NCBI GenBank assembly: GCA_000002435.2
Contig: CM018792.1
Origin: Giardia intestinalis
Lineage: Eukaryota
Direction: 5' to 3' (one strand)
DNA: 64,000 nt
The translations under genes and the position numbers were made by a program. Positions 1 through 54,006 of this stretch are shown here, one piece after another. The notes under the pieces were generated by a model. That model was not told where the DNA came from. It searched no databases and saw nothing but the letters and a program-made list of their open reading frames with translations. How positions within the stretch are numbered: position 1 is the first letter of the stretch; the number at the start of each line of letters is the position of its first letter.

Positions 1-39
1 ACCTGTCTAAGACTTGTGAACCTGTAGGCACCTGTAAAG

Positions 40-112
40 TGCTTCCGGTGGGGATCGAACCCACAGCCTTCGCAACGTAAATGCGACGCGCTAACCATTG
101 CGCCACGAAAGC
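40..112 (-). tRNA. tRNA-Val (anticodon TAC/UAC), 73 nt, CCA not encoded
   Basis: Hand-folded reverse complement GCTTTCG-TG-GCGC-AATGGTTA-GCGC-G-TCGCA-TTTACGT-TGCGA-AGGCT-GTGGG-TTCGATC-CCCAC-CGGAAGC-A. Acceptor stem is 7 bp with one G-U pair. D stem is 4 bp and anticodon stem 5 bp. T stem is 5 bp with a GTTCGATCC T-loop. U8, U33 and discriminator A are present. Confidence 0.8.
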
Positions 113-606
113 CTCAGCGCGGGCAAGGACATGTTATGGGTATATAGGATGTTCAGAGGGCAGATTTGGCAGTACTACGCCTTCTAAAAACATACTTCTT
201 TGGTCACGCCAAATCCCCCAGACAACGCAGAGTCTCTATCCGGCCTTGTCTGCTTCCAGGGCTATAGATGTCTGTCACTCTAAAAACGGAAAGCCATCCG
301 CCCCAAGCGCAGGCCTTTGGGGATGGACCGTCACTTTCGTGGCAGCTTCCCTCTGCCTTTTCCAGCACGAAGAATAAGCAAGTACCTGGGAACAATCACT
401 TTGGCGCGAGATTTCAGCACCGAGGAGAGCGTAGAAGCAAGCCAAAGTCCAAGGTGGCTCCAAGAACGCGGCCGGAGCACCTCAATAATAAGGCCACGCC
501 TGTTTACTAAGTGAACGCAGTACACCTGCTGCAGATGCTCACAGAGTAGTTCTCAGAGTAAACCTCTAATTACAGCGGTTGTGAAGAAACAATAAATTAA
601 AGAAGG

Positions 607-1905: not shown

Positions 1906-4900
1906 CCGGCATATTTTGGTGGCACATTATCTCGTTGATGCGTCCATTGCGGTGTGCAGTTAGGACTAGGTCCAACTTGGCACTGCCAATGCGCAGTAGC
2001 GCATCACCCTTTTTGACCTCCTGGCCGACCATAACGAGGAGCTTCTCCACAACCCCTGGTATAGATGCTGCAACATGGGTCTCGTCGTTCACGTCTGCCA
2101 TTGGGCAACACGTTTGATTTGGTATGGAATACTTATACTTGCATGTGTGCTTATGAGATAATATTTGCTTAAGCATCAACCTGGATGGATCCTTGAAAGT
2201 GATCCTGCTCATGGTGGACGGTTCGACTAGATCGCCAGCCTCAAATAACTCCATGATAAATTCAAACTTCCTCTCTGTCTTCTGTAGATCCGTATTTTGA
2301 ACCCTTGAAAGTGTGATAGAGCCTACTATTCCTGTTTCAAACAAGAACCAGCAACTCTCTCCCACTGTGAGTCCCTTACAATATACACTGGAAGGCATGA
2401 GCCACAAGAGATCTGAATATTTCTCTATTCTCTCACGAAACTGGGTATATGGCTTAGGGTACATCGTGCTGCACAGGATTTCTGCATCTTCTGCAGTAAA
2501 GGATGCGCCTTCAACTGCAGTATTGTTTTCTTGTGTATATCTATGAGTCTGCTGTGAGGCTTCTAGTTCTGTACTGGCGCTCCTGTACGACTGCTCGAGA
2601 GATTGTAGGTGGGCCCTAGCATCAGCTTCTGACAGCTTCAACACATGCTTCACCACATGCAGAGGGAATCCGTGATGGGGGAGCCCTAGTTTCCCTTTTA
2701 GTAGATTGACTAAAGAATCGGGCCAGTCAATTGTCTGAGACTTTTGCTTATCTCGTAGAACTTCTGGTTCGAGATTTTTTGCAAGCAGAAATAGTGCTAA
2801 ATCCCCGACAACTTTTGACGAAGGGGTTACTTTTATCAGAAATCCTAGTTCGGCGTTACATCTTGCATATATATCCACAGCCTCATTCCATCGGTATTCC
2901 AGACCCATCTCGCAACATTGCTGATAAAGATTAGTAAGTTGTCCACCCGGCATTTCGTGTTTGTACACATCTGGAGAGGGTGCTGTAAAGTTTGTGTCTA
3001 GCTCCCTATACTCCTTGCGTAGCATTCTCCAATAACTGTCATACACACTTAGGGCCTCAATAATATCTCCGCAACAGTCACCCAATTTGAAGAATCGCGG
3101 TATACATTCTACATGCTCATGATTAGCCTGGTAGAGTCTTTCTTCTGTAGAGTGAACCTGAAGAAATGTTTGCAAGGACGGTTGAGATGTTGATCCCGCC
3201 AGTGAACTTGATGCTAGGTCAATGATATGACAACCCGCTTTTGCCATGGCAAGACATGTGCTTATGCCTGCTCCACTGGTGTCATGGGTATGAAAATGAA
3301 TCGGCTTGGTGGGTCCAATGGCCTCCTTGATCCTGGCTACTAGGGGTGCTGCATGTGCGGGTCTGAGCAGTCCTGCCATGTCCTTTATGCAGAGAATATG
3401 GAAATTCGGCCAGCGAGCAACTATTTCACTGCACAGATTACTGTAGTAGTCTAGCGTATATATGTTTTCCCTTTTAGTTGTATCTAGAAAATCTCCTGTG
3501 AAACATATGCAAATCTCACAGATTGATTTTTGACACCTAGAAAGAATGGTATCCACCGCAACCTCCATTTGCTGTAGGCTATTGAATGCATCAAATACAC
3601 GAAACACATCTAAGCCGGCGTCCGCTGTTTTGATTATGAATTGCTCGATGAAGCTCCTCTCATACGCCGTGTAACCCACTGCATTTGCGCCCCGAAAGAG
3701 CATCTGAGTCAACGTGTGTGGCATGGCCTCAGTAAAGAGCTTCAGACGGTCATAAGGATTCTCATCAAGAAATCGAAGCGACGTATCAAAGGTGGCTCCT
3801 CCCCAGCACTCAACACTAAAAAGAGGTGTCTTATCTATCGAGGGGATTGACGTATTCTGTAACAAAATAGCCCCCTCTATGAGCTCTCTGGTTCGAAGCC
3901 TGGTGGCAAGCAATGATTGGTGGGCATCTCGAAACGTTGTATCAGTGTAGAACAATCGTCCAGACTCGATTATATACTTGCAGACTGCTTCTGGCCCTTG
4001 GCTCTTGAGAATGGACTTGCAGGTGATCGGATGATCTGAGATCCGGAAGCTGAGCCTGTTGATTATGGTGTTTGGCACTGTAATATTACACGGCTCTTTA
4101 ACTGGAGGCAACGAAGTCTTACTGTTGTTCAGTACATCAAATAACTTGCTCCCTTTGAGATGTGCCACGTCAGTTAGATATAGCGTTACCCTCTTAAGCT
4201 GTTCTAAGTGCTCTTGCTGTGTTTCTGTTAACTCTGTAGCCCTTTCGAGTTTTGAAGAAACGATTTTTAGACCCTTTAACTGGGCAACCCACTGCTGTGC
4301 CCTTTCTGTAGTTAACTCATCGAAGACACTCAGGTTACGGTATCGAATATTCCTATGCTTTTTCAGGTTTTTAATTTGAGAGCACTTGATGAGCATCCTG
4401 GCCACAAAGACGGCAATTCTATTGCTGGTATCCTTGCAAGCGTCTCTTGTCTCTGAGTACTCAGGGCCGACGATGATATCATTCACGACTCCTGCGTTTC
4501 TTAGATCAATAGGATAGCACCTCTGCACATGTGCAAGTAGTTCAGCATCGCTGATGAAGTTCGCCCTCATTTCTGCAGTATTGTTCCGATATACAGATGG
4601 CTGCAAGATTGAAGCAGCTCCTTCTGGACTTATCACATTGTAGAATGCCTTCGATAGAATTCCCACATAGTTTCCCCCAGCCAGAGCTAGTGCGCCTCCT
4701 GATCCACCCTCTCCAGTAATAATACTTATAATTGGAACATGCACAGCCTGGAAGGCCAGTAGGCACTCTGAAATTGCTCTTGATTGGCATTGCTCTTCGG
4801 CTTCTGGAGAAGGAAGCGCACCAGCAGTGTCTACCAGTGTTATGACAGGGATACTCAATCTATTAGCAAGGTAGATTGCTCGGGCAGCAAAACGGTAGCC

Positions 4901-20153: not shown

Positions 20154-21356
20154 ATGTTACTGAGTGAAGCACACAAGCAACACGTGAATCGAGCACCAAT
20201 GTTACTACCAGCTCTCTGCTTTTTGATGAGCGGCCTCGCCGCGCAACGCACTAAACAACCCGCGCCCAGCTGCCAGGTCGACAACTGCGAGCAGTGTAAC
20301 GCCGACAATGTCCACTGCGACCGGTGCGTCCCCAGCGACGACACAAAGTGCGAGCGGTGCAACGAGGGCTTCACGGTCAGCGACGACAAGACGGTGTGCA
20401 ACCAGAGCCCTGCGCAGTGCAATACTCCCAACTGTAAGACCTGTGACAACCCCAAAACAGACAACGAAATCTGCACTAAATGTAATGATGGCGACTACCT
20501 CACCCCTACAAACCAATGCGTACCTGACTGCACAGCCATCAGCGGATACTACGGAGATACTGACAAGAAGTGTAAGGCATGCAACCCTGAGTGCGCTGAG
20601 TGCGTTGGACCGGCCAACAATCAGTGCACGGCCTGTCCTGTTGGGAAAATGCTTCAGTATACAGATACTAATACTCCTGTCAATGGGGGCACGTGCATGG
20701 ACCAGTGCAGCGTGAGTTCTACAAACGATGGATGCGCAGAGTGTGGGGCTCAGATAGGAGGAACTGCATATTGCTCAAAGTGCAAGAACACTCAACAAGC
20801 CCCCTTGAACGGCAACTGTGCGGCCAGTTCACGAGTAGCCTTCTGTGCAACAATCACAAGTGGGGCCTGTACAAAATGCAATGAGGGTTACTTCCTCAAG
20901 GACGGCGGCTGCTATCAGACAGATAGACAGCCTGGTAAGCAGGTGTGTAGTAATGCACAGGGAGGCAATGGTAAGTGTCAGACATGTGCCAATGGCTTAG
21001 CAGCAAGTGATGGCAACTGTGCAGAATGTCATTCTACTTGTGCTACGTGCTCGACTGCAGATGCGGCTGACAAGTGCAAGACCTGTGCCACTGGGTATTA
21101 CAAGGAAAACGGTGACGATACCACTGCTGGGTTATGCAAGAAGTGCTCAGAGAAGATCTCTGGATGCAAGCAATGTGTGTCGTCATCTGGCAGTTCAGTC
21201 ATATGCTTAGAATCAGAAGTAGGCACTGGTGGAAGCGTCAACAAGAGCGGCCTCAGCACGGGGGCCATAGCCGGTATCTCTGTTGCTGTGATTGTTATTG
21301 TAGGTGGTCTTGTCGGATTCCTTTGCTGGTGGTTCCTCTGCCGCGGGAAGGCGTAG
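20154..21356 (+). CDS. Variant-specific surface protein (VSP), short variant
   Basis: 400 aa with signal peptide (MLLPALCFLMSGLAA) and dense CxxC motifs. It has a GGCY motif (LKDGGCYQTD), a C-terminal TM helix and the invariant tail FLCWWFLCRGKA. The stop is followed by ACTTAGGTAGTAAAC, matching the VSP extended poly(A) signal ACTYAGRTAGTRAAY. An alternative start lies at Met16 (20199). Confidence 0.85.
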   Translation: MLLSEAHKQHVNRAPMLLPALCFLMSGLAAQRTKQPAPSCQVDNCEQCNADNVHCDRCVPSDDTKCERCNEGFTVSDDKTVCNQSPAQCNTPNCKTCDNPKTDNEICTKCNDGDYLTPTNQCVPDCTAISGYYGDTDKKCKACNPECAECVGPANNQCTACPVGKMLQYTDTNTPVNGGTCMDQCSVSSTNDGCAECGAQIGGTAYCSKCKNTQQAPLNGNCAASSRVAFCATITSGACTKCNEGYFLKDGGCYQTDRQPGKQVCSNAQGGNGKCQTCANGLAASDGNCAECHSTCATCSTADAADKCKTCATGYYKENGDDTTAGLCKKCSEKISGCKQCVSSSGSSVICLESEVGTGGSVNKSGLSTGAIAGISVAVIVIVGGLVGFLCWWFLCRGKA

Positions 21357-21368
21357 ACTTAGCTGTGT

Positions 21369-21383
21369 ACTTAGGTAGTAAAC
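21369..21383 (+). terminator. VSP-type extended polyadenylation signal (ACTTAGGTAGTAAAC)
   Basis: Exact match to the conserved Giardia VSP 3' motif ACTYAGRTAGTRAAY, 13 nt after the stop codon. The mirror copy lies at 42553-42567 on the minus strand. Confidence 0.75.
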
Positions 21384-21399
21384 GCGTTACTTTATGTAG

Positions 21400-22150
21400 C
21401 TCGTGTAGATGTGCTGCTGGAGCTATCTGAGCGCGATCCAGAGATCATGCGGGTAATCCTCGCTCTTTCCTGGCCGTCCGGAAACGATGGCTGGTCGTGG
21501 ATAATGTAACGAGGAGCTCCTCTCCAGTGATGCATCCAGAGCCCTGCGCGGTCCCCGGTCGGCCTCCAGGATCCGGCCTGCTTAGGGCCATACGAGCCGC
21601 GAGTGTGCCTCTCCTTGGCCTGCCGCCAGGATGAATGAAACTCAGGTCGTCCCTGCACTTCTTGACCTCCTCGCTGTGGTATCCATGCAGTTGCTGGATG
21701 ACACCCACGCCCACCGCCTTGCGTTTGTGTCGGGCTCTGCTCTGCTCTGGCCGCCGGGCTGGCCTGATCTCCAGCTTGCGTTGCACTCCCCGAGACACGG
21801 AGGCACAGGTACCGACGATTGCACTGGGCCCCTGGTCGTCCCTCTGCACCGGTGGAGAGGAGCCCCTGCTTGCTGTCTACAACCGCCCTCGGACTGGCCA
21901 AGAGTCGAACACGAGCTTATCCCGAGGCCTCCGAATGCACCGGAGACGGGCTCCGATGGCACAGCACTCGATGCGATTCTTCCTGCTTGCACCCTAACTG
22001 AGGCCTGTGCACTGAGAGGCCGGTGGCACCCACCCGCTGGGGGCAGGCCACGATCTGGTGGTCCGGAAGGCGCTTGCAAGGGGCTGGGCGTCAGTCCAGG
22101 GGATGATCCGGGCCCTAAGCATTCACTCTCTATGAGCTGCGGCCCGCCAG
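21400..22150 (-). mobile_element. Degenerate non-LTR (LINE-like) retrotransposon 3' fragment, arm copy
   Basis: GC-rich segment. Its minus-strand translation (ORF 21445-21849) aligns with the endonuclease region of the spacer LINE fragment. CASVSRGVQRKLEIR...VGVGVIQQLHGYHSEEVKKCRDD matches CLCLRVSGKFNAELEVK...VDVRVIQPRQMDAYYNEKVKKYRDG. Nucleotide similarity is also visible, e.g. cctgtgcctccgtgtctcggggagtgcaacgcaagctggagatcag versus cctgtgcctccgcgtctcggggaagttcaacgcagagctggaagtcaag. Confidence 0.5.
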
Positions 22151-22158
22151 CCGCAGAG

Positions 22159-31911: not shown

Positions 31912-33954
31912 TTACTCTGAGAGGAGGGCAATTATCTCATGGCGCCTCCATAGCTTGGCCATGTCAAGGGCAGTTTCGTCCATATTATCTCTAATATTCT
32001 TCTCCCTCACAAGGAGCCTCGCACACTCTATGTAGCCGCTCTGCGCAGCGACTGTGAGAGCGGGCCATCCGTGATTGTTTTGCATGCCACCCTCTTTTTC
32101 CACAAGTAATCTGACACAACCTGCATGACCATTCTTTGCAGCCCACATGAGGGCTGTCCATCCATCCCTCGATTGCACACAACTCTCCCTTTCCAAGAGT
32201 AGCTTAGCACAGTCTGTATAACCCTGTTCTGCAGCAATCATAAGAGCAGTCCATTTGCTGTTATCCTGTATACCGCCTTCCCGTTCCAGGAGCAACTCGA
32301 CGCAATCTCTATGGCCGTTCCCTGCTGCAGCCATAAGGGCGGTTTCCCCATCGTTATCCTGCATGCCAACCTCGTTCTTCAAAAGCAATTTGATACACTC
32401 TAAATGGCCAGCACTTGCTGCAGACATGAGAGCCGTCCGCCCCTTGTCGCTCTTCATGCCGCTTTCCTTCTCTAGCAGGAGCTTAAGACAGTCTGCGTGG
32501 CCAGTCCTTGCAGTATACATGAGGGCGGTCCATCCGTTGCTATCTTTCAGTCCCTTCTCTTTCTCCGCGAGCAGCTCCACGATCTCTGTGTATCCATATA
32601 CCGCCGCCCTTATCAGAGCAGTTCCCTCGTATATCTTCCAGTCACCTACAAGTGCGCATCCCTTCATCTTCGTGCCCCCCTGGAGCGGTATGAGAGCCTT
32701 CACGGCCTCCACGTCGTTTCTGTCGACAGCCCTCATGAGGTCGGTGGAGTCGTCCTCCTCTATTAGGTGCTTCTCTGGTTCTTCTGACTCCTCTGACTCC
32801 TCCATTTCGTCTGTCTCGTCTGTCTCATCCGTCTCTGTTTTAATCTCCTGCATCTCTTCGAATAGCTTGGCAGCAACAGCATAGTGTCTCCTAATAGAGT
32901 CCAATTTTGCGGCGCTATTAGTGGGATCCTTTTCGAGAGCTATCGTCTCGTCGTTGGCTCTATCCAGGGCAGCTGTAAAGGCTTCACGCATCTCCTTCAG
33001 TCTTGTGTCTTGGGCTTTCTGTTCATCAACAGAGATGCCAAGCCTCCGAATCAGATGAGCGAGCCCCTTGGCAGTCGGCCTCTCGGCGGGATCGAGGACG
33101 AGCATCTTCTCAAGGACGCTCCTTGCGAGGTCGTCTGCGATACCGCTCAGGTCCGGCCTCCACTCGGTGACGAAGACCTCTGCTGGCTCCTTGCCCCTCA
33201 GGAAGTCTGGCTTCCTCAGGGTGGCGAGCTCGTATGCGACGGCCCCGAGGCTCCAAACGGCGGACGCGGGGGTCACATCACCGCGGAGGAGTGTCTCGGG
33301 GGCCATGTACGCGGGGTCGCCAGCCTTCGCAGCTCCGCTCGATATGCCCTCGCAGAACCCGAAGTCTGCAAGAACAACACGCCGCCCGTCCCCAGCGAAC
33401 ATGATGTTGTCGGGCTCGAGAATAGCGCGGGGAAGCAGGTCGTCATCCACGTCTCCGCCGAGGCCGTGGAGATAGGCAAGGGCGCCAGCCAGCTGCCCCA
33501 GAAGGGAGAGGACCAGCTCGTTGGGGACAGACTCGTGAATGTCTCTGTGGTCGGTGATGAACTGCCGGAGGTCTCCGCAGCAGCGGTCTGTGACAACAAG
33601 GATCGTGTTGCCGTCTGTAAGTACCTGGTGGTATTTGAGAACGCCCGGGTGAGAGGCGCTTAGAAGAGCAGCCAGCCTACGCTTAATGGCATCCACACGA
33701 TGCTGGTCCAGACCATCAAGCTGGATCTTTCTCATAGTGAACTTTGGACGTTCGTTACTAGCATGGATAGTATAAAAGCCCCCTGTGCCTAACGGCTCGT
33801 CCTTGCATTCAAACAGCTTCTCGGGGTCGATCCCGAGGATGTCGCCTGTGCCCATAGTCCTTCCAAGGCCATCGCTTACGCCTCTACCGACGTCCCATAG
33901 AGTGCGTTCTGTGGGGGTCGAAGCAAAGGGATAAAGTCCGCAGTCAACAGCCAT
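31912..33954 (-). CDS. NEK-like protein kinase with C-terminal ankyrin repeats (predicted catalytically inactive)
   Basis: 680 aa. The N-terminal kinase fold has DFG (VVLADFGFCEG) and APE (PAYMAPETL). The catalytic loop reads LPRAILEPDNIMF instead of HRDLKPENI, so the HRD Asp and catalytic Lys are missing. An acidic ETDETDETDEMEESEESEE linker follows. The C-terminus has 6 or more ankyrin repeats (GWTALMYTARTGHADCLKLLLEKE, GRTALMSAASAGHLECIKLLLKNE...). Confidence 0.8.
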   Translation of the reverse strand: MAVDCGLYPFASTPTERTLWDVGRGVSDGLGRTMGTGDILGIDPEKLFECKDEPLGTGGFYTIHASNERPKFTMRKIQLDGLDQHRVDAIKRRLAALLSASHPGVLKYHQVLTDGNTILVVTDRCCGDLRQFITDHRDIHESVPNELVLSLLGQLAGALAYLHGLGGDVDDDLLPRAILEPDNIMFAGDGRRVVLADFGFCEGISSGAAKAGDPAYMAPETLLRGDVTPASAVWSLGAVAYELATLRKPDFLRGKEPAEVFVTEWRPDLSGIADDLARSVLEKMLVLDPAERPTAKGLAHLIRRLGISVDEQKAQDTRLKEMREAFTAALDRANDETIALEKDPTNSAAKLDSIRRHYAVAAKLFEEMQEIKTETDETDETDEMEESEESEEPEKHLIEEDDSTDLMRAVDRNDVEAVKALIPLQGGTKMKGCALVGDWKIYEGTALIRAAVYGYTEIVELLAEKEKGLKDSNGWTALMYTARTGHADCLKLLLEKESGMKSDKGRTALMSAASAGHLECIKLLLKNEVGMQDNDGETALMAAAGNGHRDCVELLLEREGGIQDNSKWTALMIAAEQGYTDCAKLLLERESCVQSRDGWTALMWAAKNGHAGCVRLLVEKEGGMQNNHGWPALTVAAQSGYIECARLLVREKNIRDNMDETALDMAKLWRRHEIIALLSE

Positions 33955-34030
33955 TGCTATTTTTAAATCCAGTCCTGATCTGCCTTTTGAAAGTGATTTT
34001 ACAGACTACTGTTCGAATGCGGTATCCAGT

Positions 34031-35300
34031 GTGATCTACTGGTGGTATGGCAGTACGCTCATCATGTTCCTCTTCTGCATGGCCATCGAGCGCCTCCTGA
34101 GACGCCTCAAGGAGAGAGGCATCACCTTCCTTGCTTATGCAGACGACATCATAGCGTTCCACGACGAGGCCTACCCAGCAGGCGTGATAACACAGCTGGC
34201 CATGGGCCTGACGATCAGGAGCGACAATGCAAGTCCACCATGGCGGGCGAGGAGGTGACCTTCCTCAGCCACCCGGTGTCCCCCACTCCTGCAAGCCTTA
34301 CCCCAAAGGCCATCGCAGGTGCTGAGACTGCCCTGAGGAAGATTGAGAACGCCCCCATAACCACCCACCAGAAGCTCATCCTGCTGTCACTCTGCGTGGT
34401 CCCGATGGTGAACTACGCCCCCCTGGTCGAGATAGCCTCGGACAAGGCGGACTACGAGGAGCTGACAGACATCGCACAAGGCTTCAGCACTAACCAACAG
34501 AAGCTGCGATCGCCTGGTCGACTTCCTGGCGTACCCGAAGGAGAAGGGCGGCCCGGGCCTGCTCATGCTGGGACTCTACCACGACGAGCTGCGGAGGGCA
34601 TGGGCCTCCCTGGACGTCAACAAGGGGGCCAGAGACCCGGTGGAGCTGTCGGTGGAAGGCCAGGCACTGCAAGGGAAGGGGGTCTACTTCAACCGCCTCC
34701 TCACGCATACACCAGCTTCCGGACAGAGCGGCGGCGTGCTGACCGAGGAGGAAAGGGCCCTGAAGCAGAGAGATGGCTCGATCATGGGGCAGACAAGAGG
34801 CACCTGCCCGGGCTGCCACACGGCGAGGACCCTCGACCACGAGGCACGACATGATCGTCGCGTGCCTGTGCCTCCGCGTCTCGGGGAAGTTCAACGCAGA
34901 GCTGGAAGTCAAGACCCACAGCCACCTCAGCGACCAGAACCAGAAGCCCGACACCTGGCTCGTTGACAAGTGCAGGGCAGTGGACGTGCGTGTCATCCAG
35001 CCCCGCCAGATGGACGCCTACTACAACGAGAAGGTCAAGAAGTACAGGGACGGGACGCTCCCGATCATCATGGGACGGACGGCTCCCTCCACCCCAGTCC
35101 AAGGGGCACCTCGAGGAGCTCCACGTGGACCTCTGTCCGGGCTGCCTTCGCTATCGCCTACATGGCTGCAGAGGCGAACGAGCACCCGACGAAGCTGGTC
35201 AGACGCGACCGGGCCGAAAGCCTGGCCACCCAGAGCGACCGCCTCCTGTCATCCTACTTCTGACAACCGAATGAGCCCATCCCCGGGACCCGACGACAAC
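34031..35300 (+). mobile_element. 5'-truncated, frameshifted non-LTR retrotransposon fragment (RT motif C to CCHC to REL-endonuclease)
   Basis: RT motif ITFLAYADDIIAFHD (YADD box) is followed ~600 nt downstream by the zinc-knuckle-like CPGCHTARTLDHEARHD. After a +1 shift come RHDMIVACLCLRVSG and KPDTWLVDK...VDVRVIQ, matching the RHD / KPDLV / D..V motifs of R2/GilM-type restriction-like endonucleases. No intact ORF remains. It starts abruptly beside the kinase gene start. Confidence 0.6.
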
Positions 35301-36435
35301 GATCGAGAAGGGGCAATGACCGGACACACAACCGAGTTGAATCCCAACCAGGAGAGAACGCCCCGCTAGCTGCTGCTGATATACATGGACAGTATTGAGA
35401 ATGACAACAAAGACCAGAGCTTCACTCACCGTGAAGGGAGAGCAAGGAGAGGCACCCTAGTAGACCAGCGAGCCTGCAGGACGGCCTGATCTCCAAAAGG
35501 ACCTATGTGCACACCTAGATCGAGCACACACCCGCAGAACAGTCGAGGAACGCAGATAGCTCCTCCCGTCCACTACTGTGGTCATTATCATATTCCATAG
35601 CCAACCCTCGTCTCTGGACTAGTCAGGGACTGAGCAAGAGCTTACCCGTGAGATCTCTGGACCATACCTGCAGGCGAGGGCCCCAGCAGCACACCACTGG
35701 AAGCAACCGGTGGGTGGAGTAAATCATCATCACCGTGGTTAAGTTGCATGCCAGCCAGCCGCTCATGGTGCCAGCCACTCCCGGTACTGGGCCCTTCGCC
35801 ACAGAGTTCACCGGCTTCACTTCTGAGTCGGAAGGCCCGCTGAACGTACAGGTACATGATGAACCGCGGACGGGGACGGGAAGGATAATCTTTACTAGCC
35901 CGAGTCCTTGCTGTCGATCCTTCGAGGAAGCCGGCATGTCTCTCCGTGCCACAAGCCCGAGGGTCTCGTCCCGGGGCTCGTTGATCTGGGCAAGGGCCTG
36001 GACGTCCTTGAAGACCTCCGACCCACGAAACTCGGCGAGGTAGCACAGAACCACCGCCAACGCTATACCTGGAGGTGCTGCGAGTGGTTATGCAATGGAC
36101 AGGGCCCTGTTTTGTCTATAACTTGTCAGAACCAGCCAATCCCACAGCTGCAGAGGGGCGATGTTTAGCACACGGGGTCCGCAGTTCTGGCCTCTGCACA
36201 GCACTGTCGGTCACTCGCGGAGCCGCGGACACGCAGGGTGCGTTGCTGAGGACCGGGCATCCACCTGCGTATCGGCAGCCATGAGAGCCGGTGCTCGCCC
36301 AGACCGGAGGCTCCAGTAGCAGAGTCCGCTGACCAATACGCATCAACACGCTTGGTGCACTGGCCGAGACCTGCCGTGCCGTGCCTGGCAGACGCAGAGC
36401 GCAGGATGGCACTGGGACGCGTTTACTACTTAAGT

Positions 36436-38547
36436 CTACGCCTTGCTTCGACAGAGGAACCACCGGCAGAGGAACCCGACGAGCCCCTCGACGATGACAA
36501 CAGCAACGACGATGCCTGCGATAGCCCCCGTGGAGAGGCCGCTCTTGTTTGTGTTCCTGCTATCCTTCATGAGATAGCAGAGGACAGGGCCAGTGTTGCC
36601 AGACGGGGGAGCGCAGCTCACGCAGCCATTGATACCAGTGACCCCATTGCTATTACCTTCGCAGAATGTGCACGCGCCTTCTCCCAATACAGTCTTGTAG
36701 TATCCTGTCGCACATACCTTACACGTTGTAGCTGCCCGTTGCATGTTTCACAGCTAGAATCACACTTTGTACATGTTTGGCTGCTTCCGATTTTTGCATA
36801 CCCATCTTTGCATGTCGTGCAAGTGCTTGAAGTAGTGCACTTTGCACAGCCATCAGAGCAAACCACAAGGTTAATACTACCGTCAATATAATAACCTGAA
36901 GCCATCAAAGTGCAAGTATCAGCGCCTGGTGCTGTTGTGCAGACACTCTTCCCAGGGAACTTGGTCGTTTCATAACAGTCCCCGTTTATACGAAGAAACC
37001 CATTGGTGCATGAGCTGCATGCGCCCTTGACAACATTTCCGGTCTTACAAGTGGCTGCGGCACGAGCAGTTGCTGAGGTACAGACCCCATTCTGAGGATA
37101 TTCTGTCCCCGCGGCGCACTCTGAACAATAGCTAGCTCCATCAATGGTTAGCCCACATGTTTTACGGGCACCACTACTTTGGCCTGTTGTGCATCCAGTT
37201 CCACAGGTGCCTTTGACTCCATCACTTTCGTACTTAAGTGCTCTTCCAGTGGGACATTCAGTGCAGTCATTAGCAGTACCTGCACTGCATGTCTTGCAGC
37301 TTTCGTGACACGGAGAGCAGGCATCACCATTTTTGTAAAATCCGTCTTTGCATATTTGACATTGCCCCTGATTATCACAGGCCTTACAGTTGGACACAGC
37401 ACACTTCTTGCAAGTTTGCTTTGCTCCTTCCGTTGCTCCGTAGTAATTCCCAACCTTGTTGCAGCTGTCTATGCACTGGCTCGCCGGGTGAGATAGTTTC
37501 CACTAGCATACTCTGTGCAGACCTCGTTCTCTTTGCCCTCGTTATTGCATGTCTTGCATCCAGGCGTCTTGCAATTACTTGCTGCTTCACACTTAGTTTC
37601 ATCAGCACTAAGTTTGTATCCTACTACATAAGTGGTGCATGTAATGAGGGCAGCCCCTGATTGACTAGTAACTAAGGCACACATGGCGCAATTGGCAATT
37701 CCGTCGGTGCTGTCATCCTTGGGGAAGAAGCCGTCTTTGCATTGGTCTTTTTGTACACATGATGTGTCTTCGCCTGTGGTTTTCAGATAGTTGTTACCAG
37801 TACACTTGATACATTTGATCTTCTTAGATTGCTAGTGATAGGTGCAGGTGTCACATTAGCAACGCCGCCATTAGGGCTATCACTGCAAGAAGCACACTTG
37901 TTGCCATTCTCAGAATCATCAACTGCAACGAACTTATTAGTGCTACCAGAATTACATTGGGCTTTATCTACGCACACGTTATCCTTGAGATACTTACTGA
38001 CTCCACACTTGGTACACGTTGCAACCTTGCCGGCCTCAGCGCCGGCTGTTGCGTCAGGGGCGCCGCACTCTGCGCAGTCAGCAATGCCCTTGTATGTGTT
38101 TCCGCCAGCTGTTATTGCTACTCCGGTCGTATAACTACATGCAACCACGGATTGCTCAGTATTTACCACTTCCGTGGGGATAAAGTATCCAGGAGCAGCC
38201 TCGGTGCATACTCAGCCACTAGCCACAAGGCAAAAGCTCTGCCCCGGCTTTCCGTCGTTGGGTTGGTAGCAGCCGTCCTTGTATTTAAAGGAGGTGCTTC
38301 CACATTGTGTGCATTTTCCGGCGCTATGTTACGGACAAAGCGTACTAGCTGGCGTTTGCCCAGCATTCGCACAGATCCCATCTACGGGAGCATAGTTGGC
38401 CCCATCATTGCATTCACTGCAATATTCACTGCCACCAATGGTGGCTCCGCACGTCTTGCAGCTCCCAGCACCACCTAATCCATTTGCTTCACATGCAGCC
38501 CATGTTAGCTGCAAGACAGCGCTAGCAAGTAAAAGTCTACCGAACAT
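36436..38547 (-). pseudogene. VSP pseudogene, inverted copy of 25381-27492 with identical lesions
   Basis: Identical fragment translations on the minus strand (ORFs 36436-36744, 36618-37397, 37783-38169, 38329-38547). Confidence 0.7.
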
Positions 38548-39698
38548 TGAGGTTGCTGATCAATGGCGGTCTGTAGGACGCAGCAACACGCACTTGAGGG
38601 GCACCCTTTCGCGGGGTCGACCCATTAAGTAATGCTCTCAATGTAAAGCCCGAGGCTCAGACGTACTACATGACGCCCTGCATGCCCACAAGAAAGTCCG
38701 ACGGCCTCGCGATACCGCCCGGCGTGCCTCACTCCCGTGAGAATGCCCACCCACACCCCTTCCTCACGCTATCCCTACACCACCATACATTCCTTCCTCC
38801 CTTCCTCCCTTCCTGCCTGGCTGTCCGGGTGTCCCTACCGTCCAACGCCTGACGGGAGACGATTCAAAAAATAGAAAAGGACCCCACGATTCCGGCTCCG
38901 TACTTTTCGCAAAAAATGGCAGATTAGCGCCTTGCATGGGCACGGAGGCCAATTTACGTTTTTTGCAAAAAATGGAAACTGAGCACCACGACAATAATAT
39001 ACTACTTACGTGACCAGAGCTGATTGCTTCCGAGGCCAGATTGCCGTCGCGATTGACGCAAGGCCCTAAGATAGTGAGTGCCCACTAGGTGCCAGGCAGC
39101 AGCCGGCCTCCAAGAGCTGGCTAGAAAAGAGAGAAATCCTAGAAGGCCCTGGGAAGAACCACATCGATGTCCGAAGGAAGTGAGGCATGAGGCCCTCTTC
39201 TCCCACCAGGATCCGAGGATATCCGAATTCCAGATTCTGGATTTGGATCTCAGATTCTGGGTCTTGCCAGAAGCAAGCGGGAGGTCCACCTGTCTAAAGC
39301 GGCAGCGGCTCGTACGGAAGATCTGTTCAGATAGCAGCTGGCAAGCTAACCTCGGAAATAATTTTGCGAATTAAAATGCCCCGCCCCTCCCTTCCTCTTC
39401 TGCCTCCAGGTCTGCCTGTGTGGCACATCACCCGTCCAGCACCAGGCTGGAGAGCAGGGGCGCGCTGATCAGCACAGGTCCGTGACGCAGGAGGCTCCCA
39501 TGGAGTGGTTCCATTTACAAGCTGAGCCCAGTGCGACTCCGGCTCAACGAGTCATCTCATCGTACCGCTAGTTGCCCTTCACGTTGTGCTTCAGACACGG
39601 GAATCTCAGTATGCGCACACGGATTCGCTAGCAGTTAATGTACTCGGTTGCAAGAAACCTTTTCGTTCTGTTGCAAAGGTGCGCCGGAAAATTCAGTG

Positions 39699-41777
39699 AT
39701 GTCGGTATTGTTTCTCTTCGGTCTAGCGGTTATCGGCTTAGCGGCCCAGCCGGGCGATGGCTCTACTCCGTACAAGAATGACTACTACGTTGCCTGTACA
39801 GGCTATAAGCCTAACTGCGTGCAAGACAAGTGCGTCATGTTCGGGCCAAGGACAACGTTGTGCACCGAATGCTTATCTGGAAAAGTGCCTATCAATGGTG
39901 CATGTGTAGGAAAAGACGATTCCCCTGCTGATCCCTCTATTGATCCAACTGTTTGTGTTACGGAATCAATTACAGGTAGTGACGCGTCACAACGGTGCAC
40001 ATCGTGTACTGGTGGCACCAAAGCTAGTGAAGCAGGAGGCTCGACCTATTTCTTATTCTACGGAGGTTGTTACAATAAAAATGAGTGGCCAGGTACGCAC
40101 ATCTGTGAGACTGTTTCAGATGGTGTTTGCAATACTTGTGCGGTTGCGCACGGTTTTGTTTTTGCAAACGACAGGAATTCTCAGGAGAAATGTATTCTGT
40201 GCGGGGACACTGCTGGTTTCAATGATAAAGTAGGCATAGCAGGATGTTCGTCTTGCATTTCCCTAGAATCTCCTTCCACCACAAGTGATAATACTAAACA
40301 GACTGCTGTCCGGTGTACATCGTGTGTGGATCCAACCAAAGCACCAATCGATGATGCATGCGCAGATACCACCTCCCATGTTTGCCAGAACGGATACTGC
40401 ACTCACTGTGCATCCACTCACGTTTGCTATAAGGGTGGGTGCTATAGCAAAGAGGGAAGTGGCGCATCTATATGTGCGTCAGACAACCTAATGGATATCA
40501 GTGGTTACTCTGCTTGCAAACAGTGTGTCAATCCCAACGAAGTTCCCCACAATGGCAACTGCAGACTGTCAAGCGAGTTTGGGGCCTGCAATAAGGACAG
40601 TACTGCTGGGAAGTGTACAGCATGTAATAGATCGTCCCCCGATCGTAGAGTCTTTTTCTATGAGGGCGGATGCTATACCACGAACGACCTCCTCGGGAGA
40701 ACTATCTGCACAGAGGCCTCTGGCGGAACATGCACCACTTGCAATGAAGCACAAGGATTCTTTGCGAAGGACTCGACGTGCAGCTGGTGTGATAGTACTA
40801 CAGCTGGTGCTATTGAAGATTGCGCTAGCTGTAGTATCAAGTCTGATGGGTCCAATAAGCTTGTGTGCACTAGCTGCAAGAATGATAAGTATGTCTCTGT
40901 AAGTGGCACTTCTTGTGTCACTTCTTGTTCTGCATCAGAATCTGGTAGCTGTGAAACTGGTACGTGTGTATGCAAATGTAACGTAGGTACCTATTTTGAT
41001 AACAATAGCAATAGCTGTATCCAGTGCGACTCAGCATGTCTGGAGTGTGACGGTTCAGGTCCTGACCACTGCACAAAGTGTTCTTCGGGAAAGTACACCA
41101 AGGTGGACGACTCTGGAACGGTTACATGTGTCGACGCATCTGAATGTGGCGATGGATACTATGCGGATCCAGAAGAGCTCCAGTGTGCCACATGTGGAAT
41201 TGAAAGCTGTCAAGCATGCACCCCTAAGGATAACAACCTCGTGTGCACACGGTGCTCCCCCGGACTTGTCTCCGTCGATGGTTTCTCGTGCCCACTCACA
41301 TGCACGGAGCTGAATCAGAGAGAGGAGGATGGAAAGTGCGTCTGTGCAGAGGGCTTCGAGCCCAGTAGTGATGGCGCATGCATAGCTAAGAACACCTGTC
41401 CATCAGACGCCACAGGGTGCTCGAGCTGCAGCGCAAGTGGCGAGTGCCTCTCATGTGCGGACAGCAATCACAACGTCCAGCCGAGCAAGAGATCCTGCGC
41501 CTCAGGCTGTCCAAGCGGATCAGAATCAGTCGGCTCTCTCTGCATATGCATGGAGGGGTACACCCTCAGGGGTGACACATGCGTCTCTCAGACCAGGAAG
41601 GCCAGCTCCGGCTCCACGACGGTCACCGTGGCAGTCGTTGTCTCCCTTCTCATTATAGCGGCCGTCGCCCTCACATGCTGGCTCGTCCTGCGGAGGCGGC
41701 GGGGATCGAAGCCGATCTCGAAGAAGAGGGCAGCGGCCGAGAACGTGGAGCTCATGGGGACGGTGGACGAGTTCTAG
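39699..41777 (+). CDS. High-cysteine membrane protein (HCMP), inverted copy of 22159-24237
   Basis: Translation is identical to the left-arm HCMP. The longer track ORF starts at 39648. Confidence 0.8.
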   Translation: MSVLFLFGLAVIGLAAQPGDGSTPYKNDYYVACTGYKPNCVQDKCVMFGPRTTLCTECLSGKVPINGACVGKDDSPADPSIDPTVCVTESITGSDASQRCTSCTGGTKASEAGGSTYFLFYGGCYNKNEWPGTHICETVSDGVCNTCAVAHGFVFANDRNSQEKCILCGDTAGFNDKVGIAGCSSCISLESPSTTSDNTKQTAVRCTSCVDPTKAPIDDACADTTSHVCQNGYCTHCASTHVCYKGGCYSKEGSGASICASDNLMDISGYSACKQCVNPNEVPHNGNCRLSSEFGACNKDSTAGKCTACNRSSPDRRVFFYEGGCYTTNDLLGRTICTEASGGTCTTCNEAQGFFAKDSTCSWCDSTTAGAIEDCASCSIKSDGSNKLVCTSCKNDKYVSVSGTSCVTSCSASESGSCETGTCVCKCNVGTYFDNNSNSCIQCDSACLECDGSGPDHCTKCSSGKYTKVDDSGTVTCVDASECGDGYYADPEELQCATCGIESCQACTPKDNNLVCTRCSPGLVSVDGFSCPLTCTELNQREEDGKCVCAEGFEPSSDGACIAKNTCPSDATGCSSCSASGECLSCADSNHNVQPSKRSCASGCPSGSESVGSLCICMEGYTLRGDTCVSQTRKASSGSTTVTVAVVVSLLIIAAVALTCWLVLRRRRGSKPISKKRAAAENVELMGTVDEF

Positions 41778-41785
41778 CTCTGCGG

Positions 41786-42536
41786 CTGGCGGGCCGCAGC
41801 TCATAGAGAGTGAATGCTTAGGGCCCGGATCATCCCCTGGACTGACGCCCAGCCCCTTGCAAGCGCCTTCCGGACCACCAGATCGTGGCCTGCCCCCAGC
41901 GGGTGGGTGCCACCGGCCTCTCAGTGCACAGGCCTCAGTTAGGGTGCAAGCAGGAAGAATCGCATCGAGTGCTGTGCCATCGGAGCCCGTCTCCGGTGCA
42001 TTCGGAGGCCTCGGGATAAGCTCGTGTTCGACTCTTGGCCAGTCCGAGGGCGGTTGTAGACAGCAAGCAGGGGCTCCTCTCCACCGGTGCAGAGGGACGA
42101 CCAGGGGCCCAGTGCAATCGTCGGTACCTGTGCCTCCGTGTCTCGGGGAGTGCAACGCAAGCTGGAGATCAGGCCAGCCCGGCGGCCAGAGCAGAGCAGA
42201 GCCCGACACAAACGCAAGGCGGTGGGCGTGGGTGTCATCCAGCAACTGCATGGATACCACAGCGAGGAGGTCAAGAAGTGCAGGGACGACCTGAGTTTCA
42301 TTCATCCTGGCGGCAGGCCAAGGAGAGGCACACTCGCGGCTCGTATGGCCCTAAGCAGGCCGGATCCTGGAGGCCGACCGGGGACCGCGCAGGGCTCTGG
42401 ATGCATCACTGGAGAGGAGCTCCTCGTTACATTATCCACGACCAGCCATCGTTTCCGGACGGCCAGGAAAGAGCGAGGATTACCCGCATGATCTCTGGAT
42501 CGCGCTCAGATAGCTCCAGCAGCACATCTACACGAG
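41786..42536 (+). mobile_element. Degenerate non-LTR retrotransposon 3' fragment, inverted copy of 21400-22150
   Basis: Mirror image of the left-arm fragment. The same REL-endo-like translation is found in ORF 42087-42491 (+). Confidence 0.5.
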
Positions 42537-42579
42537 CTACATAAAGTAACGCGTTTACTACCTAAGTACACAGCTAAGT

Positions 42580-52590: not shown

Positions 52591-54006
52591 TTGTTGGCCG
52601 CCATGAACGCTCACACCGATTTCAAGCCTCCAATTTTGGACGGATCCGGAGTAAGTAATCCCTTTACATGTATCATATGTAGACTCAAATTCAATACTTT
52701 TGAAGATCAGCGGCTGCACTTCAAAACACGATTCCATGCAGAGAATTCCCACCGCAAAGCCAAGGGCCTCCCCCCGCTGACAAACGAAGAGTATATGGAG
52801 CTATTAGAACAGCGGAGTGCAGCTACGCCGCAGCCAGTCAAGAAGGTCAAATATATCTGCGAGCCCTGCGGAAAGTTGTTTTCATCGCAAAATGCCTACA
52901 AGCAGCATGAGCAGTCCACAAAGCACCGAGAAATGGTTATGAAGTTGTGTAGAGAAGGACCTCTACGGAAACCTGTCCTAGGAACTGATGCACAGCTTGG
53001 CGACGCAGTTGATGATGGAAACGTGCGAATAAATTTAGAGATGGCCATACAAGAAATCGTCGATTCCATTCCAACGCTTCCAGCCTTTATCGGAGATGAC
53101 GAGGCCGATAAGTGGGAAAAAATTCAGAAGGCACTTCTCGCTGCTAAATCGGAGGATCAACGCGACGACATCATCTGGGAGAGCATTATTTCCAAACGCC
53201 CCGTTCGACCCGACAATGAATGTTTGTTCTGTGACCATACAGTGGACCAAGCTAAAGATGACTGGTTTACGGAGTTACTGAAGCACATGGAAATACACGG
53301 ATTTATCATCCTGCGAGCCAATTATTGTACAGATCCACAAGGCCTGGTCAACTATATGAGAAAGGAAATATCCCTTACTTGGAGCTGCCTGTTATGCGAG
53401 AGGGGATTCAGATCTGTCGACGCTGTTAAGGGGCACATGCGTGCTGCAGACCATTGTATGTATGAACTTAATGATCAAGCATACGAGTTCTTAGGCTATT
53501 ATGATCATTCTCCAAGCTATCCGGATGGATTCATAGAAGAGGTTCATACTATTGCAGAGACGCCAGAGGAGCTAGAAAGCATGCTGTCTGAGATACGGAG
53601 GACTATGTGGTCTTCATCGCTACCCATTATTGGTCGCACGACTGCTGCTGGGCGCGTTGTATCAGTCAAAGACTACGAGAAAAACTATGCGCCCCAAGTT
53701 CCTGACTGGGCGGTGGAGAAGTATCAGCGTGCACAGATGCTCAAGACCCTACCCTACTATGAACGCGAGATACTAATGCGCAATTTAACAGAGGCACAGA
53801 GGGAAACTGCGTTAGAAAAGGCTCGTGCAGAGGCTGGCCAGCGCATCCAGTCCTGGCTCAAGTCTAAATGGATGGTCGTTAAGGGGCAAATCCTAGGTCC
53901 CTTAGCACGCTATGACCCGCGTGTGCAGGCTCGAGATGCAATGAGTGCAGGTATCAACCATTATAAGAAGTTCTTCAAACGTTCAACCTTGCATATATAC
54001 AACTAG
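52591..54006 (+). CDS. C2H2 zinc-finger protein, REI1/ZNF622-like (pre-60S cytoplasmic maturation factor candidate)
   Basis: The N-terminal FTCIICRLKFNTFEDQRLHFKTRFHAENSHRKAKGLPPLTNEEY resembles the REI1/ZNF622 first finger (C-x2-C...H-x3-H followed by ...LPP..). Three further U1-like C2H2 fingers follow (YICEPCGKLF...HEQSTKH, CLFCDHTV...LLKHMEIH, WSCLLCERGF...HMRAADH). Confidence 0.55.
   Translation: MLAAMNAHTDFKPPILDGSGVSNPFTCIICRLKFNTFEDQRLHFKTRFHAENSHRKAKGLPPLTNEEYMELLEQRSAATPQPVKKVKYICEPCGKLFSSQNAYKQHEQSTKHREMVMKLCREGPLRKPVLGTDAQLGDAVDDGNVRINLEMAIQEIVDSIPTLPAFIGDDEADKWEKIQKALLAAKSEDQRDDIIWESIISKRPVRPDNECLFCDHTVDQAKDDWFTELLKHMEIHGFIILRANYCTDPQGLVNYMRKEISLTWSCLLCERGFRSVDAVKGHMRAADHCMYELNDQAYEFLGYYDHSPSYPDGFIEEVHTIAETPEELESMLSEIRRTMWSSSLPIIGRTTAAGRVVSVKDYEKNYAPQVPDWAVEKYQRAQMLKTLPYYEREILMRNLTEAQRETALEKARAEAGQRIQSWLKSKWMVVKGQILGPLARYDPRVQARDAMSAGINHYKKFFKRSTLHIYN

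What the first reader, a model, noticed from the sequence alone, without database searches (positions are those of the whole stretch)
34031..35300. Degenerate non-LTR retrotransposon fragments at three places in the VSP locus
The spacer holds a 5'-truncated LINE remnant in three shifted frames. It has RT motif C (FLAYADDIIAF), a CCHC-like CPGCH...LDH and RHD / KPDTWLVDK / VDVRV restriction-like endonuclease motifs. A more decayed copy of the same 3' region sits between the VSP 3' end and the HCMP 3' end in each arm (21400-22150 on the minus strand, 41786-42536 on the plus strand). It shows clear nucleotide and protein similarity to the spacer copy. The fragments lie next to the VSP genes and near the inner breakpoints. 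This fits retroelement-mediated rearrangement and growth of the surface-antigen locus, and the elements resemble the dead GilD type.
Basis: partly seen in the sequence, partly recalled or inferred. Interest (0 to 1): 0.65.

Follow-up and report, generated by a model that had tools for sequence, protein, structure and literature searches.

The report
Dead GilD-type retrotransposon remnants, Giardia
The region holds decayed copies of a known, extinct jumping gene (GilD-type, R2-like LINE) of Giardia, next to its surface-antigen genes; this is real but ordinary and already described for this genome.

Summary
The window comes from Giardia intestinalis WB.

**Spacer copy.** Positions 34056-35723 (+) hold a frameshifted remnant of a non-LTR retrotransposon. 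It keeps RT motifs B-E, the thumb, a damaged CCHC knuckle, the RHD/KPD/VDV nuclease motifs, a 3'UTR and an AGTAAA terminus. Relatives are Giardia 'reverse transcriptase/endonuclease' fragments (E to 1e-145). The reconstructed family protein hits Pfam RVT_1 (96 bits). It matches R2 proteins best, both by sequence and by predicted fold.

**Arm copies.** An older remnant sits at about 42016-42552 (+), mirrored at 21384-21920 (-). Only about 540 of the claimed 750 nt are supported.

**The 5' end.** It is not a classical 5' truncation. The orthologous locus in isolate DH shows a 1,855-bp deletion between 11-nt microhomologies. A 38-bp internal deletion has the same signature. Both match the published description of GilD: dead copies, microhomology deletions, location next to VSP genes.

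**Link to the inverted repeat.** The element's 3' terminus lies 9 bp from the inner edge of the right arm of the 7.8-kb inverted repeat. A causal role in the rearrangement is not shown. The arm remnants look like passengers. The WB genome paper already notes RT remnants between inverted VSP pairs.

Low novelty, modest interest.

The parts
34056..35723 (+). Spacer copy: remnant of a GilD-type non-LTR retrotransposon. It corresponds to consensus positions ~1439-3195 of a ~3.2-kb unit and is 93% identical to the family consensus, with 13 indels.
34056..34066 (+). Deletion scar, CGCTCATCATG. This 11-nt microhomology joins the NEK-upstream flank to RT motif B. The DH orthologue carries 1,855 bp here.
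   Evidence: L002 4706-4716 and 6572-6582 compared with the window
34056..35263 (+). Broken ORF remnant running from RT motif B through the stop codon after ...SSYF. At least 4 frame switches are needed to read it.
34127..34159 (+). RT motif C (FLAYADDIIAF).
   Evidence: weak RVT_1 hit; full RVT_1 hit on the family consensus
34805..34850 (+). CCHC knuckle remnant (CPGCH...LDH) followed by RHD. A 38-nt deletion after 34839 removes the last Cys and shifts the frame. The deletion is flanked by GACCACGA/GACCGCGA.
   Evidence: invariant columns
34842..35075 (+). Remnant of the restriction-like endonuclease domain: RHD, KPD at 34944-34952, VDVRV at 34980-34994, and EKVKKY.
35264..35723 (+). 3'UTR. 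The last ~190 nt (35534-35723) are the family's terminal repeat. The terminus reads ...GGTGGGTGGAGTAAA, with AGTAAA at 35718-35723. There is no poly(A) tail.
35724..35732 (.). The 9 nt (TCATCATCA) between the element terminus and the inner edge of the right IR arm, which starts at 35733.
42016..42552 (+). Right-arm old remnant, lying between the HCMP stop (41777) and the VSP stop (42580). The nuclease-coding part (42117-42288) is fused to the 3'UTR/terminal-repeat part (42288-42537) by a ~360-nt internal deletion. Weak protein-level similarity extends back to ~42016.
21384..21920 (-). Left-arm mirror copy of the old remnant. It is identical because it lies inside the perfect inverted repeat.

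Best explanation
These are inert fossils of one extinct family of R2-like non-LTR retrotransposons of Giardia. The family has a single ORF with a restriction-like endonuclease. It is the family published as GilD and, from my memory of Burke et al. 2002, probably also as Genie 2.

**How the element worked when alive (inferred from relatives).**
- A single ORF encoded N-terminal C2H2 zinc fingers, an RT, a thumb, a CCHC knuckle and a PD-(D/E)xK nuclease.
- The transcript ended just after the element's own AGTAAA signal.
- The protein nicked the target and copied the RNA by target-primed reverse transcription. One DH copy shows a 17-bp target-site duplication.
- In assemblage A the propagated unit is about 3.1 kb and has 120-170-nt terminal inverted repeats.

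**History of the spacer copy.**
- It inserted beside a NEK kinase gene before the A1/A2 split, because isolate DH has it at the same site.
- It then decayed by point mutations, small indels and microhomology-mediated deletions: 1,855 bp at the 5' side and 38 bp in the CCHC motif.

**The arm copies.** They belong to an older, more diverged lineage. They were duplicated passively along with the [remnant + VSP tail] module and with the 7.8-kb arm.

**Present function.** None is implied. The coincidence between the 3' terminus and the right arm's inner edge is shown. Any causal link to the inverted duplication is inference.
For: **Family identity**
- Hits to Giardia RT/endonuclease fragments at E 1e-145.
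- All copies examined are frameshifted. That covers 6 DH loci, 1 GS locus and the window.
- The reconstructed family protein hits RVT_1 at 95.9 bits, E 3.5e-27.
- Its best PDB sequence relative is an R2 protein (9nl2, E 8e-12), with collinear RT, thumb and CCHC+nuclease stretches.
- Across relatives down to ~20% identity, C-C-H-C, RH and PD columns are invariant or nearly so.
- An AF2 model (pLDDT 70-91 over the nuclease) matches only R2 proteins at E<=1e-3. Next come PD-(D/E)xK PA-N endonucleases.

**Distinct from the other Giardia RT family**
- Identity to P0061/P0067 is 28-34%.
- The window holds no telomere repeats.

**Orthology and deletion**
- DH contigs are collinear with the window up to 34066, and the microhomology junction is resolved to the base.
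- A second microhomology deletion is documented.

**Termini and insertion mechanism**
- Terminus, terminal repeats and TSD.

**Arm remnants**
-. The [remnant 3' end + VSP tail] module is shared with L001.

**Literature**
- psiRT between inverted VSP pairs in WB; GilM is 5,474 bp (PMC7000408).
Against: - No direct alignment to the deposited GilD, GilM or GilT reference sequences was possible, and the primary papers are not held. The name 'GilD' therefore rests on properties and on exclusion.
- The window copy alone fails the Pfam gathering threshold.
- Identity between the window copy and DH's orthologue is only 92% ungapped, against 99% for distal flanks. The last 1.1 kb of flank is similarly diverged, at 87-95%. 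Phylogenetic support for orthology is slim: 11 privately shared sites with L002 against 8 with L004.
- The AF2 model is only moderately confident overall (pLDDT 64.5). TM-scores to R2 are low (~0.4) because of inter-domain uncertainty.
- The majority consensus still contains shared frameshifts, so the 809-aa protein is a hand-stitched reconstruction.
Confidence: 0.9

Rival explanations
1. Driver hypothesis. The retroelement, or its ends or terminal repeats, caused the inverted duplication that built this VSP/HCMP palindrome. One route would be a break or fold-back at the element's 3' junction.
For: - The element terminus (35723) lies 9 bp from the right arm's inner edge (35733). A random position within the 7.5-kb spacer would fall this close in well under 1% of cases. 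By analogy with L005, where the TSD starts 7 nt after AGTAAA, this is essentially the element/target junction.
- In DH locus L001, an ~890-nt-armed palindrome of VSP tails has the element body as its spacer and the element's terminal repeats as the innermost part of its arms.
- The WB paper reports RT remnants between 4 of 7 divergent duplicated VSP pairs (PMC7000408).
Against: - Only one of the two inner edges touches an element. Nothing element-related lies at 28196, and there is no residual inverted homology inside the spacer edges.
- The left arm/spacer junction is shared with DH.
- L003, L004, L005 and L006 show no palindrome beyond their own terminal repeats.
- The element is old (7% from consensus, shared with DH), whereas the arms are 100% identical.
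- The arm remnants are 6.3 kb from the inner edges.
- The right junction could not be checked in any second assembly.
Confidence: 0.2
2. The copies belong to one of the active telomeric Giardia families (GilM/GilT), displaced to an internal site.
For: They share the overall architecture (zinc finger, RT, CCHC, restriction-like endonuclease) and the same host. GiardiaDB-style names ('Reverse transcriptase/endonuclease, putative') do not distinguish the families.
Against: - The other Giardia RT family found (P0061, and P0067 with its intact 883-aa ORF) is only 28-34% identical.
- The unit length is ~3.1 kb, against 5,474 bp reported for GilM (PMC7000408).
- The window holds no tandem array and no (TAGGG)n.
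- Every copy is frameshifted.
Confidence: 0.03
3. The similarity is a compositional artefact of GC-rich sequence, and the motifs are chance matches.
For: The region is 60% GC. The window copy alone gives only E 1e-3 to Pfam RVT_1.
Against: - E 1e-145 to independent database proteins.
- 86-88% nucleotide identity over 1.7 kb to five other loci, all ending at the same terminus.
- Profile E-values of 1e-33 and 7e-10 for the arm remnant.
Confidence: 0.01

Closest known systems
GilD, the 'dead' non-LTR retrotransposon family of Giardia lamblia (Arkhipova & Morrison 2001, PNAS 98:14497)
   Same: - Same host isolate (WB).
- Every copy is dead, with frameshifts and internal deletions.
- The deletions are microhomology-mediated.
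- The copies are interstitial and sit next to VSP genes (PMC2861651).
- The family is distinct from the two telomeric families.
   Different: No contradiction was found. Direct sequence comparison with the deposited GilD consensus could not be made.
Genie 2 (Burke, Malik, Rich & Eickbush 2002, Mol Biol Evol 19:619). From memory: ~10 degenerate, non-site-specific copies with inverted repeats up to 172 bp.
   Same: Relatives of the window copy carry terminal inverted repeats of 119-170 nt. They are degenerate and inserted at different sites.
   Different: The window copy has lost its 5' repeat to the 1,855-bp deletion. The equation GilD = Genie 2 is my recollection and was not verified here.
R2 elements (Bombyx mori R2Bm, R2Tg; PDB 8gh6, 8ibw, 9nl2, 9dou)
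   Same: - Single ORF with N-terminal C2H2 fingers, RT, thumb, CCHC and a C-terminal PD-(D/E)xK restriction-like endonuclease.
- R2 is the best sequence match and the best fold match.
- A TSD consistent with target-primed reverse transcription.
   Different: - Only ~15-25% identity.
- Not rDNA-specific.
- Carries terminal inverted repeats.
- Ends in the host polyadenylation signal without an A-tail.
- All copies are dead.
GilM/GilT (Genie 1), the telomeric Giardia LINEs
   Same: Same host and the same domain architecture.
   Different: - Only 28-34% identity to the presumed representatives P0061/P0067.
- GilM/GilT are intact, occur in tandem arrays, are subtelomeric and measure ~5.5 kb.

Membership tests
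Non-LTR retrotransposon with restriction-like endonuclease (R2/NeSL/CRE/Genie group) | Reverse transcriptase domain with the YADD catalytic motif | tested here: met
   The window copy keeps motifs B-E, including YADD, but hits RVT_1 at only 19.2 bits. The family consensus hits RVT_1 at 95.9 bits against a cut-off of 29.6. P0002, P0012, P0015 and P0034 carry PF00078.
Non-LTR retrotransposon with restriction-like endonuclease (R2/NeSL/CRE/Genie group) | CCHC motif between the RT/thumb and the nuclease | tested here: met
   C163, C166 and C178 are invariant and H174 nearly invariant across 19 relatives. In the window copy the motif is truncated by a 38-nt deletion.
Non-LTR retrotransposon with restriction-like endonuclease (R2/NeSL/CRE/Genie group) | C-terminal PD-(D/E)xK (restriction-like) endonuclease fold and motifs | tested here: met
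   RH and PD columns are conserved. The region aligns collinearly with the R2 restriction-like endonuclease, although that stretch alone is weak. The AF2 model has alpha-beta-beta-beta-alpha-beta topology with pLDDT 70-91. Foldseek finds only R2 proteins at E<=1e-3, then PA-N endonucleases.
Non-LTR retrotransposon with restriction-like endonuclease (R2/NeSL/CRE/Genie group) | Insertion by target-primed reverse transcription (target-site duplication, no LTRs) | tested here: inconclusive
   One relative (L005) has a 17-bp TSD. None was found for L001, L003 or L004. The window copy cannot be tested because its 5' end is deleted.
GilD | Only dead copies, with frameshifts, substitutions and internal deletions | tested here: met
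   The window copy needs at least 4 frame switches and carries 13 indels. All 7 other loci are frameshifted.
GilD | Deletions flanked by microhomology | tested here: met
   The 1,855-bp deletion lies between CGCTCATCATG and CGCTCAGCATG. The 38-bp deletion lies between GACCACGA and GACCGCGA. The criterion comes from PMC2861651.
GilD | Interstitial location next to VSP genes, not telomeric | tested here: met
   The window holds no TAGGG repeats. VSP/HCMP genes are adjacent in the window, in L001 and in L008.
GilD | Sequence identity to the deposited GilD consensus | not testable with these tools
GilM/GilT | Intact ORF, head-to-tail subtelomeric arrays, ~5.5-kb unit | tested here: not met
   The ORF is frameshifted, the copy is single and the unit is ~3.1 kb. 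There are no telomere repeats. Identity to the other Giardia RT family is 28-34% (PMC7000408).
Genie 2 | Inverted repeats (up to ~172 bp) at the element ends | tested here: met
   Relatives carry terminal repeats of 119-170 nt. The window copy retains only the 3' repeat (35534-35723). The criterion is recalled from memory.

The most novel reading that the evidence does not exclude
The ends of GilD-type elements (the terminal inverted repeats or the element/target junction) are preferred breakpoints. They would seed palindromic duplications of VSP-bearing DNA, so that a long-dead retroelement keeps shaping the antigen repertoire. Three observations are compatible with this. In WB, the inner edge of the arm lies 9 bp from the element terminus. 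In DH locus L001, a VSP-tail palindrome is centred on an element. The WB genome paper reports RT remnants between inverted VSP pairs.
Probability: 0.15. Interest if true: 0.55.

Novelty: already known. Interest (0 to 1): 0.25.

Why it matters
The finding mainly serves annotation. It fixes the true limits and lesions of three pseudo-RT segments in the WB reference.

It also gives a base-resolved example of the microhomology-mediated deletions that inactivate GilD, dated by the WB/DH comparison.

The one point that could matter more is the coincidence between an element terminus and a palindrome boundary, seen here and in one DH locus. If that holds genome-wide, it would link retroelement relics to the inverted duplications that diversify the VSP antigen repertoire.

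Tried and rejected
- **Pfam and PDB sequence searches with the raw window copy.** Sub-threshold or empty. They worked only with the reconstructed consensus.
- **TSD for the window copy.** Impossible, because the 5' end is deleted. The flank upstream of the DH orthologue shares no TSD-like match with the window's 3' flank.
- **Forced global alignment of the arm remnant to the consensus.** Over-gapped and inconsistent with the local profile hits, so discarded.
- **Exact look-ups of the window's NEK protein and of an ORF spanning the element/arm junction.** Not on record, so the right junction has no independent check.
- **Primary papers** (Arkhipova & Morrison 2001; Burke et al. 2002). Not held.
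- **Search for a poly(A) or TA-rich tail.** None. The element ends in AGTAAA.
- **Search for further family fragments in the window.** None beyond the three at E<=1e-2. Two weak tblastn hits (20011-19874 and 53308-53553) were treated as chance.
- **Fold-back at the element's own terminal repeats as the origin of the big IR.** Considered, but it does not fit. The left arm is 5.8 kb away from where the 5' repeat was, and no complementary sequence lies inside the spacer edges.

Full report
**Source and setting.** Two conserved proteins of the window are exact matches to Giardia intestinalis ATCC 50803 / WB clone C6: GL50803_0093693 and IFT complex B. They lie on a 2.76-Mb chromosome contig.

The finding sits in the 7,537-nt spacer (28196-35732) of a large inverted repeat. 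The repeat's arms are 20412-28195 and 35733-43524. They form two blocks that are each 100% complementary, with an 8-nt register shift between the blocks.

A NEK kinase/ankyrin gene (31912-33954, minus strand) lies immediately upstream of the finding. Each arm carries an HCMP-type gene and VSP genes.

**Check of the observation.** All quoted motifs are present on the + strand in shifted frames:
- FLAYADDIIAF at 34127-34159
- CPGCH at 34805-34819
- RHD at 34842-34850
- KPD at 34944-34952
- VDVRV at 34980-34994

Taken alone, the copy is too decayed for the curated libraries. Pfam RVT_1 gives 19.2 bits against a cut-off of 29.6. A PDB sequence search gives nothing relevant.

Against the large protein collection, the frameshift-corrected translation gives E 7.9e-145 to 1e-9. 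All 33 hits are Giardia proteins or come from unnamed ENA contigs. Many are named 'Reverse transcriptase/endonuclease, putative', and none exceeds 595 aa.

**True limits of the spacer copy.** I compared the window with six loci of isolate DH (assemblage A2) that hold family members.

The homology always starts at window 34056. It ends at 35723-35731, at a sharply conserved terminus...CCGGTGGGTGGAGTAAA, followed by unrelated flanks. In the window this terminus ends at 35723.

The ORF remnant ends at 35263 (...SSYF stop). The remaining 460 nt are 3'UTR.

There is no poly(A) or A-rich tail. AGTAAA is, to my knowledge, the Giardia polyadenylation signal.

**The 5' end is a deletion scar, not a 5' truncation.** DH contig AHGT01000124 (L002/L007) is collinear with the window from 25394 through the NEK gene to 34066. 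It then carries 1,855 nt that the window lacks, and re-aligns from 34056 onward. At base level:
- DH flank: ...GGCAGTA CGCTCATCATG AGGAGG...
- DH inside the RT ORF: ...GGCGACC CGCTCAGCATG TTCCTC...
- Window: ...GGCAGTA CGCTCATCATG TTCCTC...

The RT reading frame continues upstream across this point in DH, so the DH state is ancestral. WB lost about 480 nt of flank, the element's 5' terminal repeat and about 1.37 kb of element, between two 11-nt microhomologies.

A second lesion has the same signature. It is a 38-nt deletion after 34839 that removes the last Cys of the CCHC motif. It is flanked by GACCACGA/GACCGCGA.

In all, the copy is 93.1% identical to a family consensus and carries 13 indels.

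One caveat concerns orthology. Identity between the WB and DH element copies is 92.4% ungapped, while distal flanks are 99% identical. However, the last 1.1 kb of flank is itself only 87-95% identical. L002 is the closest copy, but only by a slim margin.

**What the element is.** Full-length DH copies are about 3.1 kb and 91-93% identical to one another. They carry terminal inverted repeats of 119-170 nt, the 5' end being the reverse complement of the 3' end.

One copy (L005) is flanked by a 17-nt target-site duplication that starts 7 nt after AGTAAA. This is the mark of target-primed reverse transcription.

A majority consensus still has shared frameshifts. Stitching the frames gives an 809-aa protein with these parts:
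- an N-terminal C2H2 finger (CWLCGLPCESAKQLTEHL...H)
- the RT and thumb
- CCHC
- the nuclease motifs

Tests on this protein and its relatives:
- It hits Pfam RVT_1 at 95.9 bits, E 3.5e-27.
- Its best solved-structure relative is an R2 retrotransposon protein (9nl2, E 7.9e-12). Three collinear stretches cover the RT, the thumb and CCHC+nuclease.
- In an alignment reaching relatives of about 20% identity, C163, C166, C178, R188 and H189 are invariant. H174, P223 and D224 are nearly so.
- An AlphaFold2 model of the intact C-terminal half (P0005) is confident over the nuclease (pLDDT 70-91) and has alpha-beta-beta-beta-alpha-beta topology.
- In the PDB, that model matches only seven R2 proteins at E<=1e-3 (1e-7 to 8e-6). 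Influenza PA-N PD-(D/E)xK endonucleases follow at about 1e-2.

The architecture is therefore R2-like: zinc finger, RT, CCHC and a restriction-like endonuclease.

**Which Giardia family.** An exhaustive search with the longest relative (P0034) finds the next Giardia RT proteins at only 33-34% identity. These are P0061, 'Reverse transcriptase/endonuclease' from DH, and P0067, an intact 883-aa ORF from GS. Against the consensus they are 28-34% identical.

The window has no telomere repeats and no tandem element array. GilM is reported as 5,474 bp (PMC7000408), whereas this unit is about 3.1 kb.

[quoted passage not shown] Every one of these properties is met here.

From memory, Burke et al. 2002 described Genie 2 as degenerate copies with inverted repeats up to 172 bp. 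That matches the terminal repeats seen here. The deposited reference sequences could not be consulted, so the name is assigned by properties and by exclusion.

**The arm copies.** A profile built without the window detects two segments in the right arm. They are mirrored exactly in the left arm (21819-21648 and 21648-21397).
- 42117-42288 matches the nuclease-coding part, E 1.3e-33.
- 42288-42537 follows directly and matches the 3'UTR/terminal repeat, E 6.6e-10.

The two segments are joined across an internal deletion of about 360 nt.

Protein-level similarity extends back to about 42016 (P0033, E 1.8e-10). Nothing supports 41786-42016.

The remnant is only about 71% identical to the spacer copy. 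It is closest to the most diverged DH lineage (L006/P0033), so it is older.

Its degenerate terminus (AGTAA at 42545-42549) lies about 30 nt from the stop codon of the convergent VSP gene (42580-42582).

The segment made of the remnant's 3' part plus the VSP tail (42394-42696) is also found, at 73% identity, at an unrelated DH locus (L001). This indicates that the remnant travelled as a passenger of VSP duplication.

**Relation to the inverted repeat.** What is shown:
- The spacer copy's terminus (35723) is separated by only 9 nt (TCATCATCA) from the inner edge of the right arm (35733).
- In DH locus L001, a palindrome with arms of about 890 nt (VSP tail + old remnant + terminal repeat) has the element body as its spacer.
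- The WB genome paper reports RT remnants between 4 of 7 divergent duplicated VSP pairs, and a NEK kinase in one (PMC7000408).

What argues against a causal role:
- Nothing element-related lies at the left inner edge, and no residual inverted homology lies inside the spacer edges.
- The left arm/spacer junction is shared with DH.
- Four other DH copies show no palindrome beyond their own repeats.
- The right junction could not be verified in a second assembly.

I therefore rate 'retroelement-mediated rearrangement' as possible but unproven, at about 0.15-0.2.

**Verdict.** The boundaries, the nature of the 5' end and the extent of the arm copies need correction. The rearrangement hypothesis is not established. 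The family, its decay mode, its association with VSP genes and the presence of pseudo-RTs between inverted VSP pairs in this genome are all published. The finding is already known and of modest interest.

Noticed in passing
window 20412-28195 and 35733-43524: A 7.8-kb inverted repeat made of two blocks, each 100% complementary (4,725 and 3,094 nt), with an 8-nt register shift between the blocks. It encloses a 7,537-nt spacer. Against isolate DH, the innermost 2.8 kb of the arms (the part the DH contig covers) is only 94.6% identical. This suggests either a very recent duplication or ongoing homogenisation within WB.
   Followed up: partly
window 43394-46093 (VSP ORF 42580-46350, minus strand): A tandem array of a 120-bp unit: 19 consecutive identical 300-nt windows plus two flanking ones at 71%. 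It encodes 40-aa repeats in a 1,256-aa VSP. The outer boundary of the inverted repeat (43524) falls inside the array. The left-arm partner VSP (20154-21356) is only 400 aa. From memory, it is reminiscent of the CRP136 repeat VSP.
   Followed up: no
window 32958-34066 (5' half of the NEK gene and its upstream region): WB-DH identity drops from ~99% to 87-95% over the last 1.1 kb next to the element. This is a locally hyper-divergent stretch inside a coding gene.
   Followed up: no
window 42544-42559: A near-palindromic AAGTAACGCGTTTACT. It provides AGTAA on the + strand at the end of the old remnant, and AGTAAA on the minus strand 21-26 nt after the VSP stop codon. It looks like a shared bidirectional polyadenylation site.
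   Followed up: no
L001 (DH AHGT01000170) 163-1052 and 3887-4773: A palindrome of VSP tail + old remnant + element terminal repeat. Complementarity declines from 99% at the outside to 86% in the terminal repeat. The 2.8-kb element body forms the spacer, and the arms run to the contig end.
   Followed up: partly
L008 (GS-B AHHH01000232) 1-3327; protein P0034: The assemblage-B relative has a 1,108-aa open frame with two extra N-terminal C2H2 fingers. The ~3.1-kb assemblage-A units therefore lack about 300 N-terminal codons, which are replaced by an inverted copy of the 3' end. How such a unit was propagated is unclear.
   Followed up: no
PMC7000408 Table 2, compared with L003-L005: Twelve convergent duplicated VSP pairs in WB are separated by 2.5-2.8 kb with no gene annotated between them. 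That spacing is close to the 2.79-2.84 kb between the terminal repeats of the element. This may be coincidence.
   Followed up: no
L002 4801-5037 (DH), upstream of the orthologous element: An older inverted remnant lies between the NEK gene and the element in DH. It includes a 59-nt match to the window's arm remnant (42052-42110). It was lost from WB in the 1,855-bp deletion.
   Followed up: partly
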